Below are positions 21,405 to 23,590 of a stretch of 64,000 nucleotides of DNA, in pieces. Every line of letters starts with the position of its first letter. Position 1 is the stretch's first letter. The position numbers and the translations under genes were made by a program. Under the pieces are notes generated by a model that was given only the letters and a program-made list of their open reading frames with translations, was not told the DNA's origin and made no database searches. The DNA comes from Kiritimatiellia bacterium. GTDB lineage: Bacteria > Verrucomicrobiota > Kiritimatiellia > CAIVKH01. The stretch covers positions 44,982-108,981 of the forward strand of contig JANWZO010000004.1 of the NCBI GenBank assembly GCA_025054615.1. Reading direction: 5' to 3'.

Positions 21405-22250
21405 GTGCGGAACTTTTCTCGTAGTCTGTACTGCGTGCTGGAACTAACCTTCCAAGGCGGTGTGTCGATCCGACTCGACGCGCCGGAGTCAGTTGCCCAT
21501 GCGTTCGAGCACCTCTTCGGCGCGTGCCGCGCGGACGGAGGGCCGCGCTCGCCGGACAGCCGAATGACGATCGCTGTTATGCGCGGCGATTCGGATGGGC
21601 TCTGGAGCGTTCGGTTCGACGGAATTCTCGCGGCGCAATTCGACAGCCTCTCCCAAATCCTGCCGTTCCTCGAAACGACGGTGTGCCAGTTTCTGCTGTA
21701 CCACCGGGCGGATCGCCTGCCGCTTCACGCGGGGGCTGTGCGATCCGAGCGGGGCGCGATCGTCATGCCCGGGGAGAAGGGCAGCGGCAAATCGACGTTA
21801 TGCCTGTGGCTCGCCTCCCGCGGCTGGGATTATCTGGGCGATGAGCTCGTGTGGATTGATGCCGAAGGCCGGGTGGAGCCGTTCCCCAAAGCGGCCGCGA
21901 TCAAGGAGGGATCATTCGAACTCTTCGGCCCCGCGGAGACGTTTGAAAGTTTGACGCGCGGACCGTTGCGCTACCACCGGCCGAGCGGAGGCGGGGTCGC
22001 GGTGGGAACCGCGCTGTCGGTTGAGGCGCTAATCTTTCCGCAATTCGACCCCAACGGCGACTCCGTTTTTCAACCGCTGCGACCGGAAGAGACGCTTCTG
22101 TGCCTTTCGCAGATGGTGTTTGGCGGAATGGCGCGGCGGCCGGACCGGTTTCCGAATCTAGTGGCGCTGGCCGAGCGACCTGCGTGGGTCGCGGTGTATC
22201 GCGACGCGCGCGAGGTCGAGGAATGGCTGGCCCGAGGCGGGACGAGATGA
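21405..22250 (+). CDS. HprK-related kinase (HPr kinase C-terminal-domain-like P-loop protein)
   Basis: Walker A GEKGSGKST followed by LGDELVWIDAEGRVEPFP, as in HPr kinase/phosphorylase-like kinases associated with RiPP (lasso-peptide) tailoring. GTG start. ATGA overlap with the next gene. Confidence 0.65.
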   Translation: MRNFSRSLYCVLELTFQGGVSIRLDAPESVAHAFEHLFGACRADGGPRSPDSRMTIAVMRGDSDGLWSVRFDGILAAQFDSLSQILPFLETTVCQFLLYHRADRLPLHAGAVRSERGAIVMPGEKGSGKSTLCLWLASRGWDYLGDELVWIDAEGRVEPFPKAAAIKEGSFELFGPAETFESLTRGPLRYHRPSGGGVAVGTALSVEALIFPQFDPNGDSVFQPLRPEETLLCLSQMVFGGMARRPDRFPNLVALAERPAWVAVYRDAREVEEWLARGGTR

Positions 22251-23590
22251 ATCGGGAACTTCGGCATCTGTGCGATTGTCTGGCGGCGGCTGCGGGCTTA
22301 CTCGATCGGCTGCCGGCGGGCACCGTAGATTGGGAGCGCTGGCTGGCCCTCGCGGCGGAGCACAAGGTTTCGGCGCTCCTATTCAACCGCTTTCGACGGG
22401 CGCCGCCGTGGCCGGAGGCTGTTCATCGGGAACTGGCCAGCCGCTATGCAGCCTCGGCCTACATGAACGGCCTTCGCGTCCGTGAACAGGTCGCCCTGCT
22501 TCGCGCCCTCGCCCCAGTGGCGGAAGTGATCGCATTGAAAGGCTTCGCCCTGCTGTTCACGCTTTACGGCGAGGCGGCAGAACGCGACATGGCGGACCTG
22601 GACCTTCTCGCAGCCGGAGAGCGCGAAGCGGAGTCGCTTGCTGTCGCCCTCCGCGAGCGAGGTTATGTTCCCAAACGCGAGATGGCCGGCCACCATCACC
22701 TGTCGCCCCACGCGCACCTTTCTGGGCGACTCACCGTCGAGATCCACACGAACCTCACCGGTCCGTTCCTCCCCTCCGTCGCGATGGATCACATCTGGGC
22801 CCGCCGCGAGTCCATCCCTCTGCCCGACGGCGGAACTGTGAACATCCTGTGTCTGCCCCACCGGTTGTTCCACCAAGCGCTGCACGCAGTCAAAGATCCC
22901 ATCGAAAGCCCGTTGCTTCGGAACCTGTTCGAGATAGCCTGGATGGCTTCCCGGCTGACACCGGAGGATTGGTCCGCCTTTGACGAATTCGGCGAGCTCT
23001 CCGGTCGGCGCGCGACCGCGCTGCGCGCGCTCGCGCTCGCGCGGGAGTGGTTTCCCTTCAGCGCACCTGTTTTCCCGACACCCAGGCGATCGACAATCGA
23101 GTGGTGCGCGCGGCGCCGCTTGAACTGGATTGGCGAGCCGACTTCGGCCGCGGAGCAGTTCCTACGACACCTCGCGGTCAAGCACTTCGACCGCATGCCT
23201 GCGGGTCGACTGCGGATCGACCTTCCTCACCTGCTTGGCGTGGCAGTTTCAAGCGTGTGGAAGGCCGTGAGGCTGCGGATCCGAACCTGGCTCGCGCCCT
23301 GGAGTCGACTGCCCGTGCGGCGCATCCCGCTGGCGGAACGTGAATTCCGAGATGCAATCGCTTTGCTCCGGCCGAGCAATGGCCAGGTCTATGTTTTGCG
23401 CGGCGCCGCCGCTGCGGCCTGGCGGGCATCGTCAGCAATGAAGTCTCCGCGACAAGTCGTCCGGCACACCGTCGACGCGGGTTTCAGCGCACGCGAGGCG
23501 CGCGCTGCAATCCGCCGCCTGACCGCCGAGGACCTGCTTCTAAACGCGTCCGCAAAAACCGCTGGAGCGCCTTGGGAGCCGTCGATATAA
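22247..23590 (+). CDS. Nucleotidyltransferase-family protein (PF14907-like 'uncharacterised nucleotidyltransferase')
   Basis: Start MNRELRHL overlapping the HprK-like stop. Minimal NTase-fold motif KGFALLFTLYG...RDMADLDLLA (G[SA]...DxD). About 447 aa, as for PF14907 partners of HprK-like kinases. The track ORF begins further upstream in-frame (22100) but overlaps the kinase gene. Confidence 0.65.
   Translation: MNRELRHLCDCLAAAAGLLDRLPAGTVDWERWLALAAEHKVSALLFNRFRRAPPWPEAVHRELASRYAASAYMNGLRVREQVALLRALAPVAEVIALKGFALLFTLYGEAAERDMADLDLLAAGEREAESLAVALRERGYVPKREMAGHHHLSPHAHLSGRLTVEIHTNLTGPFLPSVAMDHIWARRESIPLPDGGTVNILCLPHRLFHQALHAVKDPIESPLLRNLFEIAWMASRLTPEDWSAFDEFGELSGRRATALRALALAREWFPFSAPVFPTPRRSTIEWCARRRLNWIGEPTSAAEQFLRHLAVKHFDRMPAGRLRIDLPHLLGVAVSSVWKAVRLRIRTWLAPWSRLPVRRIPLAEREFRDAIALLRPSNGQVYVLRGAAAAAWRASSAMKSPRQVVRHTVDAGFSAREARAAIRRLTAEDLLLNASAKTAGAPWEPSI

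What the first reader, a model, noticed from the sequence alone, without database searches (positions are those of the whole stretch)
21405..23590. Orphan HprK-like kinase + PF14907-type nucleotidyltransferase pair without peptide, cyclase or RRE
A P-loop protein related to the HPr kinase C-terminal domain (GEKGSGKST) is translationally coupled (ATGA) to a large NTase-fold protein (G-x-DLD motif). This pairing is known as a tailoring module in lasso-peptide/RiPP loci, where the kinase phosphorylates the precursor's C-terminal Ser. Here there is no asparagine-synthetase-like cyclase, no transglutaminase-like protease, no PqqD-like RRE and no credible precursor ORF. The only small ORFs nearby are repeat artefacts. 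The pair is wedged between rdgC and dapF and preceded by the palindrome array. This suggests either a RiPP-independent role for the pair, such as a protein or small-molecule phosphorylation/nucleotidylation switch, or a split biosynthetic locus.
Basis: partly seen in the sequence, partly recalled or inferred. Interest (0 to 1): 0.65.

Follow-up and report, generated by a model that had tools for sequence, protein, structure and literature searches.

The report
Peptide kinase–nucleotidyltransferase pair with hidden RRE
Two overlapping genes in a Kiritimatiellae genome encode a serine-kinase-like enzyme and a nucleotidyltransferase whose tail is a previously unnoticed peptide-binding (RRE) domain. 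This makes the pair a compact version of a known peptide-modifying cassette, but its target peptide is not encoded anywhere in these 64 kb.

Summary
The two genes are real. ORF1 (21405-22250) is a PEPCK/HprK-fold P-loop kinase, closest to NCBIfam 'HprK-related kinase A' but below its cutoff. ORF2 (22247-23590, ATGA overlap) is a PF14907 nucleotidyltransferase.

The last ~90 residues of ORF2 fold as a PqqD-like RiPP recognition element. Foldseek matches them to TbiB1 and TfuB1 bound to leader peptides, and hhalign gives 85% probability to the HPr-rel-A PqqD chaperone.

Canonical 'HPr-rel-A' loci have three genes: PqqD, kinase and a ~360-aa NTase. Here the PqqD module is fused to the NTase. About 47 clusters share this fusion, in Kiritimatiellota, Verrucomicrobiota and Myxococcota.

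In six of eight distinct fused-type loci, a small ORF sits just upstream of the kinase. It has a twin-arginine-signal-like leader, an AxA-type site and a Ser two to three residues later. This echoes the phosphorylated Ser3 of the 2026 Bacillota 'linear polyphosphorylated peptides'.

The window and its closest relative lack this ORF. The window also has no cyclase, protease or radical SAM enzyme.

The pair most likely modifies a leader-bearing peptide encoded elsewhere. I rate it a new variant of a known kind, of moderate interest.

The parts
21405..22250 (+). ORF1: HprK-like (PEPCK-fold) P-loop Ser kinase, 281 aa. A GTG at 21435 would give the 271-aa form seen in P0014.
   Evidence: TIGR04352 E 6.5e-21 over aa 81-268. 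The family profile hits HprK/P 1ko7 at E 6.4e-8. The AF2 model has pLDDT 92.3. Foldseek finds PEPCK (E 7.5e-7, TMq ~0.6) and the HprK/P C-domain.
21771..21797 (+). Walker A / P-loop GEKGSGKST (aa 123-131). With H108 and D146-E147 it forms the His-Lys-Asp-Asp/Glu catalytic set.
   Evidence: H108, G128, K129, T131 and D146 are invariant in 21 homologues. The His-Lys-Asp-Asp motif is essential in lasso-tailoring kinases (PMC9266682).
22247..22250 (+). ATGA start/stop overlap, indicating translational coupling of ORF1 and ORF2.
   Evidence: Read directly from the sequence. The same 4-nt overlap occurs in L001, L003, L005-L007 and L048.
22247..23590 (+). ORF2: PF14907 nucleotidyltransferase with a C-terminal RRE, 447 aa. 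NCBI annotates a 455-aa form that starts at 22223.
   Evidence: P0001 is 100% identical and named 'nucleotidyltransferase family protein [Kiritimatiellae bacterium]'. The AF2 model has pLDDT 84.9.
22325..23056 (+). NTase catalytic domain (aa 27-270). It contains K98-G99, R113, D117-x-D119 (22595-22603), H149-H151 and E165/H167.
   Evidence: PF14907 E 5.5e-37. These residues are invariant in 13 homologues. Foldseek finds MenT1/MenT4 NTase folds at E 2e-4. Mutating the DxD motif kills PsmN (PMC6993621).
23315..23545 (+). C-terminal RiPP recognition element (PqqD-like winged helix, aa ~357-433): strands 357-359, 363-367, 370-375 and 380-385, then helices 386-395, 401-410 and 415-427, then strand 431-433.
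   Evidence: DSSP on the model, with pLDDT about 80-94 over this part. Foldseek finds TbiB1 with leader (5v1v_A: TMt 0.68, rmsd 2.4 A, 83 columns), TfuB1 (6jx3_B: TMt 0.68) and the CteB RRE. hhalign against TIGR04353-type PqqD proteins gives 85% probability, E 6e-6. hmmsearch against PDB finds TbiB1 at E 0.023 over its full length. Pfam and NCBIfam models miss the domain.

Best explanation
The pair is a compact, two-gene version of the RRE + HprK-like kinase + PF14907 nucleotidyltransferase cassette that modifies ribosomal peptides. The peptide-binding RRE has become the C-terminal domain of the NTase.

Inferred mechanism:
1. The RRE tail of ORF2 binds the leader of a small precursor. In relatives this leader looks like a twin-arginine (Tat) signal peptide.
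2. ORF1 (poly)phosphorylates a Ser located 2-3 residues after an AxA/AxG signal-peptidase-type site. In the shortest precursors this Ser is at or next to the C-terminus.
3. The NTase domain adds a further group onto the phosphate, either a hexose as for PsmN or a nucleotide.
4. The modified peptide is then probably exported and cleaved.

In this genome the precursor is not next to the enzymes, nor within the 64 kb, so the pair most likely acts in trans on a precursor encoded elsewhere.

What is shown: the domain identities, the fusion, intact catalytic residues, the conserved pairing, and the presence of the small Tat-like ORF in relatives. What is inferred: the acceptor Ser, the chemistry of the NTase step, export, and the existence of a precursor in trans.
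For: - Kinase: TIGR04352 E 6.5e-21. The profile hits HprK/P structures at E 6e-8 across the H-loop, P-loop and DD motifs. The fold is PEPCK/HprK.
- NTase: PF14907, with invariant G and DxD motifs.
- RRE.
- Canonical loci L005-L007 carry a separate TIGR04353 PqqD chaperone (E 5e-16 to 2e-9, above cutoff), then the kinase, then an NTase of only 359-367 aa. The extra ~90 aa here replace the missing gene.
- The fusion is conserved in Kiritimatiellota, Verrucomicrobiota and Myxococcota. It appears in 47 of the best 150 cluster representatives.
- Kinase-NTase linkage: the kinase lies within the fetched flanks in 23 of 35 genome loci and 24 of 47 metagenome loci.
- A small Tat-like ORF sits immediately upstream of the kinase in L001, L002, L009, L010, L047 and L048. 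The L010 peptide passes TIGR01409 TAT_signal_seq.
- A profile of these peptides retrieved 106 unannotated small proteins. Three of the four checked independently lie beside a PF14907 NTase, and two of those three also beside a radical SAM enzyme, PqqD and an HprK-like kinase.
- Experimental precedents: PsmK/PadeK phosphorylate a precursor Ser, and PsmN adds hexose to the phosphate (PMC6993621, PMC9266682). LppK polyphosphorylates Ser3 of the core 'AQS...' just after an SpI-type cleavage site in lasso-free clusters (PMC13381572).
Against: - No precursor-like ORF exists in the 64-kb window; the best HMM E-values of 0.05-0.7 are noise. None exists in the closest relative L003/L004 either.
- There is no dedicated peptidase next to the pair. 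The only ABC exporter lies ~25 kb away, with no linked small ORF.
- Standard PqqD HMMs do not detect the RRE. The hhalign probability is 85%, not above 95%.
- ORF1 scores well below the TIGR04352 trusted cutoff.
- LppN showed no activity in the only lasso-free system tested, so the NTase chemistry is unknown.
- Nothing here was tested experimentally.
Confidence: 0.6

Rival explanations
1. RiPP-independent role. The pair phosphorylates and then nucleotidylates or glycosylates a full-length protein, for example genuine Tat-exported proteins recognised through their signal peptides. Alternatively it acts on a cell-envelope or small-molecule substrate, possibly linked to the always-adjacent dapF.
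For: - No precursor in the window or in L003/L004.
- Kinase-NTase-dapF-mazG order is kept in all five distinct Kiritimatiellae-clade loci, with gaps of only 9-30 bp in three of them.
- In canonical loci the upstream Tat-like ORFs are 137-207-aa proteins rather than short peptides.
- Related cassettes sit beside polysaccharide or GlmU/GlmS genes, as noted for LPP.
Against: - An RRE is a peptide-leader-binding module, and it keeps the family's conserved residues here.
- Most fused-type relatives do have a dedicated mini-precursor.
- dapF synteny is confined to one clade and may simply be inherited.
Confidence: 0.17
2. Functionless remnant. The cassette lost its precursor, perhaps when the upstream region was rearranged and the palindrome array appeared, and it is now decaying.
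For: The precursor's usual position, directly upstream of the kinase, is occupied by a genome-specific palindrome array that is absent from 42 related loci searched. Upstream synteny is variable among relatives.
Against: - Both ORFs are intact and coupled, and all family-invariant catalytic residues are present.
- Another sample carries a 99%-identical kinase (P0014).
- L003/L004 also lack the precursor, are only ~53-55% identical, and yet keep both genes intact. This argues for long-term purifying selection without an adjacent precursor.
Confidence: 0.1
3. Toxin-antitoxin or defence pair. ORF2 would be a MenT/AbiEii-like NTase toxin controlled by phosphorylation from the adjacent kinase.
For: The best Foldseek matches of the NTase part are the MenT1/MenT4 toxins (E 2e-4 to 6e-4). 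One of the matching PDB entries is a phosphorylated MenT1 (8rr5, same table). There is a weak PADLOC AbiEii hit at E 1.4e-4 over 48 residues.
Against: - The similarity is limited to the generic NTase core (TMq ~0.3).
- ORF2 belongs to PF14907 and carries an RRE.
- There is no AbiEi/MenA-like partner, and the kinase gave no PADLOC hit.
- The context is housekeeping, with no mobile-element or defence-island signs.
- Homologues act in peptide maturation.
Confidence: 0.04

Closest known systems
NCBIfam/TIGRFAMs 'HPr-rel-A system' (TIGR04353 PqqD-family peptide chaperone + TIGR04352 HprK-related kinase A + PF14907 NTase). It is defined bioinformatically and is experimentally uncharacterised.
   Same: It has the same three modules, the same kinase-then-NTase order with overlapping genes, and detectable homology of all three parts. 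Its loci also carry a Tat-like ORF upstream.
   Different: The RRE is fused to the NTase C-terminus instead of being a separate upstream gene. The kinase scores 74.7 bits against a cutoff of 200. No TIGR04353 HMM hit was obtained. No upstream ORF exists in the window.
Linear polyphosphorylated peptide (LPP) clusters of Bacillota (LppA/K/B/S/D/N; PMC13381572, 2026)
   Same: It is a lasso-free cassette of HprK-like kinase, RRE and uncharacterised NTase acting on a linear precursor. The acceptor Ser lies just after a signal-peptidase-type cleavage site: core 'AQS' there, against 'AxA|Q(G)S' in relatives' precursors here.
   Different: LPPs are reported as restricted to Bacillota. They have a discrete RRE, a YxxP leader motif, a dedicated SipW-like peptidase and an MsbA-like exporter. 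None of these is present here, and relatives' leaders are Tat-like.
Paeninodin/pseudomycoidin lasso-peptide tailoring enzymes (PadeK/PsmK kinase, PsmN NTase)
   Same: The enzyme families are the same. Ser phosphorylation occurs on the linear precursor. The short relatives' peptides end in Ser, like PadeA and PsmA.
   Different: There is no lasso cyclase, B2 protease or lasso-type precursor. The RRE here is attached to the NTase rather than being a B1 protein.
SynChlorMet-type and Myxococcales radical-SAM cassettes (ScmC-like kinase + PqqD + rSAM/SPASM + PF14907)
   Same: The ScmC/HprK-like kinase gives weak hits (TIGR04249 E 5e-4). Precursors share the RRRLL...YVPP leader, which aligns with the fused-class leaders.
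   Different: Those clusters add a radical SAM/SPASM maturase and have Cys/Pro-rich cores. Neither is present here.
HPr kinase/phosphorylase (HprK/P)
   Same: The PEPCK-like P-loop fold and the H...GxxGxGKS...DD/DE catalytic layout are shared.
   Different: ORF1 gives no TIGR00679 or Pfam Hpr_kinase_C hit. Its N-terminal domain differs, and its partner is an NTase-RRE rather than a PTS gene.
MenT/AbiEii nucleotidyltransferase toxins
   Same: The NTase core fold is shared.
   Different: The Pfam family differs, ORF2 has an RRE tail, there is no antitoxin-type partner, and there is no defence context.

Membership tests
HPr-rel-A system (NCBIfam) | Kinase scores above the TIGR04352 trusted cutoff (200 bits) | tested here: not met
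   74.7 bits, E 6.5e-21, aligned over 188 of 281 residues. ORF1 is homologous but outside the equivalog.
HPr-rel-A system (NCBIfam) | PqqD-family peptide chaperone (TIGR04353) encoded as a small gene next to the kinase | tested here: not met
   No separate gene exists, and the ORF2 tail gives no TIGR04353 HMM hit. The equivalent fold is present as a fused domain.
HPr-rel-A system (NCBIfam) | PF14907 NTase immediately downstream of, and overlapping, the kinase gene | tested here: met
   PF14907 E 5.5e-37 and the ATGA overlap. L005-L007 have the same layout.
LPP RiPP family (PMC13381572) | HprK-like kinase + RRE + uncharacterised NTP transferase without a lasso cyclase | tested here: met
   No cyclase was found among the ORFs scanned across the window.
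LPP RiPP family (PMC13381572) | Archaeal-type signal peptidase I (LppS) and MsbA-like exporter in the cluster | tested here: not met
   No signal peptidase was found in the window. The only ABC exporter (48921-50723) is ~25 kb away, behind pgi and mfd.
LPP RiPP family (PMC13381572) | Precursor with a YxxPxVLxHQxIxFETxxS leader | tested here: not met
   The window has no precursor. Relatives' precursors have RR-hydrophobic Tat-like leaders without YxxP.
Lasso peptide cluster (paeninodin-like) | Asn-synthetase-like macrolactam cyclase (C protein) | tested here: not met
   The only Asn_synthase-type hits cover the PP-loop region and belong to LarE (E 2.6e-99) and MnmA.
Lasso peptide cluster (paeninodin-like) | Transglutaminase-like B2 leader peptidase and a lasso precursor | tested here: not met
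   None was found among 62 ORFs scanned against Pfam across the window. No small Ser-terminated precursor was found.
RRE (PqqD-like RiPP recognition element) | Winged helix-turn-helix of three strands followed by three helices, matching solved RRE-leader complexes | tested here: met
   DSSP topology. TbiB1 gives TMt 0.68 at rmsd 2.4 A, TfuB1 gives TMt 0.68, and the CteB RRE also matches.
RRE (PqqD-like RiPP recognition element) | Binds a leader peptide | not testable with these tools
   A binding assay or a complex prediction with a cognate leader is needed. No cognate leader is known for this genome.
Genuine HprK/P | Match to TIGR00679 or Pfam Hpr_kinase_C/N, and an HPr (ptsH) partner | tested here: not met
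   ORF1 matches neither model. Whether ptsH exists elsewhere in the genome was not testable from the window.
GlnE/GlnD-type nucleotidyltransferases | Match to GlnE/GlnD family models | tested here: not met
   Only PF14907 was found, even at E up to 10. There were no NCBIfam hits.
MenT/AbiEii toxin-antitoxin | DUF1814/AbiEii family membership with a cognate antitoxin gene | tested here: not met
   There is a weak local AbiEii hit (19 bits over 48 aa) and no antitoxin-like neighbour. Fold similarity covers the NTase core only.

The most novel reading that the evidence does not exclude
The fused kinase/NTase-RRE cassettes of Kiritimatiellota, Verrucomicrobiota and Myxococcota, with the related HPr-rel-A and Myxococcales clusters, would define an undescribed Gram-negative RiPP-like class. 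Its precursors imitate twin-arginine signal peptides. Some are little more than a Tat signal plus a 3-6-residue Ser-terminated tail ('...EAHG QSS', '...EAKA QSSV').

The product would then be a tiny phospho-(glycosyl or nucleotidyl)ated peptide, or a modified signal peptide, matured in the cytoplasm and handed to Tat. In the window's lineage the enzymes have become unlinked from any precursor. They act in trans, possibly on Tat signal peptides more generally.
Probability: 0.2. Interest if true: 0.7.

Novelty: new variant of a known kind. Interest (0 to 1): 0.4.

Why it matters
The HprK-like kinase and PF14907 NTase were long treated as accessory lasso-peptide tailoring enzymes. Only in 2026 were they shown to form their own lasso-free RiPP family, and that family was reported only in Bacillota.

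This locus and its relatives show that the same chemistry module exists in Gram-negative phyla in a fused NTase-RRE form that standard RRE/PqqD HMMs miss. The relatives also point to a coherent set of unannotated precursors with Tat-signal-like leaders and a conserved Ser next to a signal-peptidase site.

This gives a concrete, testable substrate for enzymes that currently have no known product. It also warns genome-mining pipelines that an 'orphan' tailoring pair may hide its recognition domain inside one enzyme.

For the window itself the significance is limited. The substrate is not present, so function cannot be pinned down from this sequence.

Tried and rejected
- Direct Pfam and NCBIfam scans of the ORF2 tail for PqqD gave no hit. 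Structure prediction and profile-profile comparison were needed to find the domain.
- The window was searched for a precursor with tblastn of relatives' peptides, two Tat-motif regex scans and four HMMs (pre4, pre9, pre11 and a Kiritimatiellae-clade model). Only noise came back.
- The small ORFs inside the palindrome array (21152-21447) are repeat-driven on both strands and unlike any relative's precursor.
- The weak Asn_synthase hit at 10614-12104 was a possible lasso cyclase. It resolved to LarE.
- The ABC exporter and HlyD at 48.9-51.8 kb were considered as a possible peptide exporter. There is no adjacent small Tat-like ORF and housekeeping genes lie between, so I do not count them as linked.
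- The defence/TA reading rests only on a weak AbiEii hit.
- The metagenome scan for more fused-type loci returned only one, identical to L002.
- RRE-focused papers were checked for NTase or kinase fusions and mention none.
- Promoter and terminator scans around the pair were uninformative.
- I could not extend beyond the window or inspect the rest of the source MAG.
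Full report
**1. What is in the sequence**

The window comes from a Kiritimatiellae MAG. ORF2 is 100% identical to an NCBI protein named 'nucleotidyltransferase family protein [Kiritimatiellae bacterium]' on a 161.5-kb contig.

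ORF1 runs 21405-22250 (+), 281 aa. A second GTG at 21435 would give the 271-aa form seen in a 99%-identical protein from another sample. ORF2 starts at the ATG of an ATGA at 22247-22250 that overlaps the ORF1 stop, and it ends at 23590 (447 aa).

**2. ORF1 is an HprK-like kinase, not HprK/P itself**

- Pfam gives only sub-threshold AAA hits.
- NCBIfam gives TIGR04352 'HprK-related kinase A' at E 6.5e-21. The score is 74.7 bits against a cutoff of 200. TIGR04355 gives 4.9e-6 and ScmC gives 5e-4.
- A 21-sequence family alignment has H108, G128, K129, T131 and D146 invariant.
- Its profile finds HprK/P structures first in the PDB (1ko7 at E 6.4e-8, then 1jb1, 3tqf and 1knx). The alignment runs across the His loop, P-loop and Asp-Asp region.
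- An AlphaFold model (pLDDT 92.3) matches ATP-dependent PEP carboxykinases (E 7.5e-7, TMq 0.61-0.64) and the HprK/P catalytic domain. This is the PEPCK-like P-loop kinase fold.
- The His-Lys-Asp-Asp set is the catalytic motif shown by mutagenesis in lasso-tailoring kinases (PMC9266682). Here it reads H108, K129, D146 and E147.

**3. ORF2 is a PF14907 NTase with an RRE tail**

Residues 27-270 match PF14907 at E 5.5e-37. K98-G99, R113, D117, D119, H149-151, E165 and H167 are invariant in 13 homologues.

The alignment also shows a conserved C-terminal block: 'ALLxPxxGQVxVLRGxAAxAW...ARxAxRxLxAxGLL'. The AlphaFold model (pLDDT 84.9) places strands at 357-385 followed by three helices at 386-427.

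Foldseek against the PDB matches the N-terminal part to MenT-type NTases (E 2e-4). It matches the tail to three RREs:
- TbiB1 bound to its leader (5v1v_A: TMt 0.68, rmsd 2.4 A over 83 columns)
- TfuB1 bound to its leader (6jx3_B: TMt 0.68)
- the RRE of CteB

A profile of the tail aligns end to end with TIGR04353-type PqqD proteins at hhalign probability 85%, E 6e-6. It also finds TbiB1 in the PDB at E 0.023. Standard PqqD HMMs do not detect the domain, which explains why it was overlooked. The statement 'no PqqD-like RRE' is therefore incorrect.

**4. The fusion replaces a gene**

Distant kinase homologues lie in canonical three-gene cassettes:
- an 89-99-aa protein that passes TIGR04353 ('HPr-rel-A system PqqD family peptide chaperone', E 5e-16 to 2e-9)
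- the kinase
- a PF14907 NTase of only 359-367 aa

The window's NTase is ~90 aa longer, and the extra part is the RRE.

The fused architecture recurs in Kiritimatiellae-type contigs (L001/L008, L003/L004, L047, L048), in L002, in a Myxococcota MAG (L009, L011) and in a Verrucomicrobiota MAG (L010). An exhaustive profile search found 32,914 PF14907-like cluster representatives. Of the best 150, 47 align through the RRE region. The fused form is therefore a small subfamily.

Kinase and NTase are linked very generally. The kinase lies within the fetched flanks in 23 of 35 genome loci and 24 of 47 metagenome loci.

**5. The likely substrate, seen in relatives**

Six of the eight distinct fused-type loci with upstream sequence have a small ORF ending within ~90 bp of the kinase start:

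| Locus | C-terminal part of the small ORF |
|---|---|
| L001 | ...KGITRRRAIKVGVFSLATALPIVMTIAPTEARGSDPS* |
| L047 | ...TRRKAIKAGVFTLAAALPIVMTMWPKEAHGQSS* |
| L048 | ...EAHGQTS* |
| L010 | ...TRREALKMTAILGVAVALVTTMAPTEAKAQSSV* |
| L002 | ...ARRELLKLGAKAGLAIPVVMSLAPEDARAQGSWKGG... |
| L009 | ...SRREVLGVGAKALGVGIPVVLTLSPSKARAKGSWEAS... |

Each has an (S/T)RRxxLK-like motif, a hydrophobic stretch, an AxA/AxG site and a Ser two to three residues later.

Supporting observations:
- The L010 peptide passes TIGR01409 TAT_signal_seq (21.1 bits against a cutoff of 16.7).
- Canonical loci have 137-207-aa ORFs with the same kind of N-terminus and 'ALAQS' or 'GAQTS'.
- A gammaproteobacterial locus has PqqD, then a 54-aa peptide ('SRRDFVKKAAYVAPAIVTLSALPTMHAHGS...'), then the kinase.
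- Myxococcales loci add a radical SAM/SPASM enzyme and Cys/Pro-rich cores behind an alignable leader.
- A profile of ten such peptides retrieved 106 small proteins, all unannotated and without Pfam domains.
- I checked four of these for context. Three lie next to a PF14907 NTase, two of them with a radical SAM enzyme, PqqD and an HprK-like kinase. The weakest hit does not.

The association was first noticed by position, so part of it is circular. The three new contexts and the L033 hit are independent.

**6. Comparison with experiment**

In pseudomycoidin, PsmK (poly)phosphorylates the precursor's C-terminal Ser. The PF14907-type PsmN adds one or two hexoses onto the phosphate, and a DxD double mutant is inactive (PMC6993621; PMC9266682).

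In 2026, lasso-free clusters of Bacillota were shown to make 'linear polyphosphorylated peptides'. These clusters encode a precursor, an HprK-like kinase, a discrete RRE, a SipW-like peptidase, an exporter and an NTase. LppK polyphosphorylates Ser3 of the core 'AQSNWK', immediately after the leader-cleavage site. The unphosphorylated precursor is cleaved poorly, and LppN showed no activity. The authors state that LPPs and paeninodins are restricted to Bacillota (PMC13381572).

The relatives' 'AxA|Q(G)S' arrangement mirrors this. From it I infer that the Ser just after the signal-peptidase-type site is the acceptor. In the shortest peptides this Ser is at or next to the C-terminus. A Tat-type leader would suit a substrate that is modified in the cytoplasm before export. 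Both points are inference from established knowledge of Tat.

**7. The window itself**

No such ORF exists within the 64 kb. The tblastn, regex and HMM searches gave best E-values of 0.05-0.7. The closest relative, L003/L004, also lacks it; there a flavodoxin-like gene ends 54 bp before the kinase.

In the window the corresponding space holds seven copies of the palindrome TTCCATGSCATGGAA at a ~32-bp period. The small ORFs there are repeat artefacts.

I scanned 62 ORFs against Pfam. These are nearly all the non-nested ORFs of 150 aa or more. PheT (28765-31170) was left out, and several scanned ORFs matched nothing. The neighbourhood is housekeeping:
- upstream: class IV aminotransferase, LarE, MnmA, HPPK, RpsB, EF-Ts, FHA, TPR, an amidohydrolase/dihydroorotase-like protein and a weak RdgC-like protein
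- then the pair
- downstream: DapF, MazG, HAD, a DegP-like protease, PheS, PheT (named from its translation only), a GlmS-type SIS/amidotransferase, QueA and others

There is no cyclase, B2 protease, radical SAM enzyme or signal peptidase.

Both proteins keep every family-invariant residue. The order kinase-NTase/RRE-dapF-mazG is retained in all five distinct Kiritimatiellae-clade loci although the upstream genes differ. Two lineages only ~53-55% identical both keep intact enzymes without an adjacent precursor. This argues that the pair works on something encoded elsewhere rather than decaying.

**8. Verdict**

The locus fails the formal membership tests for the HPr-rel-A equivalogs, for LPP and for lasso clusters. 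It clearly works with the same parts. I classify it as a new variant of a known kind: an NTase-RRE fusion, in Gram-negative phyla, with Tat-like precursors in relatives.

Interest is moderate at 0.4. The fused RRE and the precursor family are useful leads, but the window lacks the substrate and nothing has been tested biochemically.

Noticed in passing
window 21148-21352 and 44611-44750: There are two arrays of the same 15-bp palindrome, TTCCATGSCATGGAA, with 7 and 5 copies at a ~31-32 bp period. That is 12 matches against 0.08 expected by chance. Both arrays are intergenic. The palindrome is absent from 42 related loci searched, so it is specific to this genome. Its function is unknown; candidates are REP-like elements, protein-binding arrays or terminators. 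The first array occupies the position where relatives encode the precursor peptide.
   Followed up: partly
L012, L016, L021, L024, L025, L037, L043, L046 (Myxococcales and others); proteins P0042-P0147: A family of about 100 unannotated 54-137-aa peptides has the leader 'ARRRLLxMAxYVPPxVxGxIxLQQAGCQP' and repetitive Cys/Pro/Asn-rich cores such as CNPDTGCNPDNCPPN. They are encoded next to a radical SAM/SPASM enzyme, PqqD, an HprK/ScmC-like kinase and a PF14907 NTase. This looks like an undescribed RiPP class. No NCBIfam or Pfam model matches the peptides.
   Followed up: partly
window 23600-24418 (dapF) and 24406-25284 (mazG, minus strand); L001, L003, L047, L048: dapF follows the NTase-RRE gene in all five distinct Kiritimatiellae-clade loci, with a gap of only 9 bp in the window. 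A convergent mazG and a HAD-like gene come next, while the upstream genes differ. I could not decide whether this is inherited synteny or a functional link to the cell envelope.
   Followed up: partly
The name should be treated as tentative.
   Followed up: partly
window 10614-11501 (minus strand): The long ORF 10614-12104 gives a weak Asn_synthase hit that could be mistaken for a lasso cyclase. The real gene is a ~295-aa LarE (ATP-dependent sacrificial sulfur transferase, E 2.6e-99), next to mnmA.
   Followed up: yes
window 48921-51772 (minus strand): An MsbA-like ABC exporter (ABC_membrane + ABC_tran) overlaps a HlyD-family adaptor, ~25 kb from the pair. No small Tat-like ORF lies beside them. 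A link to the kinase/NTase pair is unsupported.
   Followed up: partly
window 15726-16382 (FHA, minus strand) and 39322-41586 (Hanks-type Ser/Thr kinase, minus strand); L002, L003: Hanks-type protein kinases or FHA-domain genes lie within a few kb of the cassette in L002, L003 and L001. They lie more distantly in the window. This is probably coincidental.
   Followed up: no
L002 11392-12141: In the most divergent fused-type locus, a 249-aa protein with a signal peptide and a glycine-rich, beta-barrel-like sequence overlaps the end of the NTase-RRE gene. No family hit is on record. It may be an extra component of that cassette.
   Followed up: no
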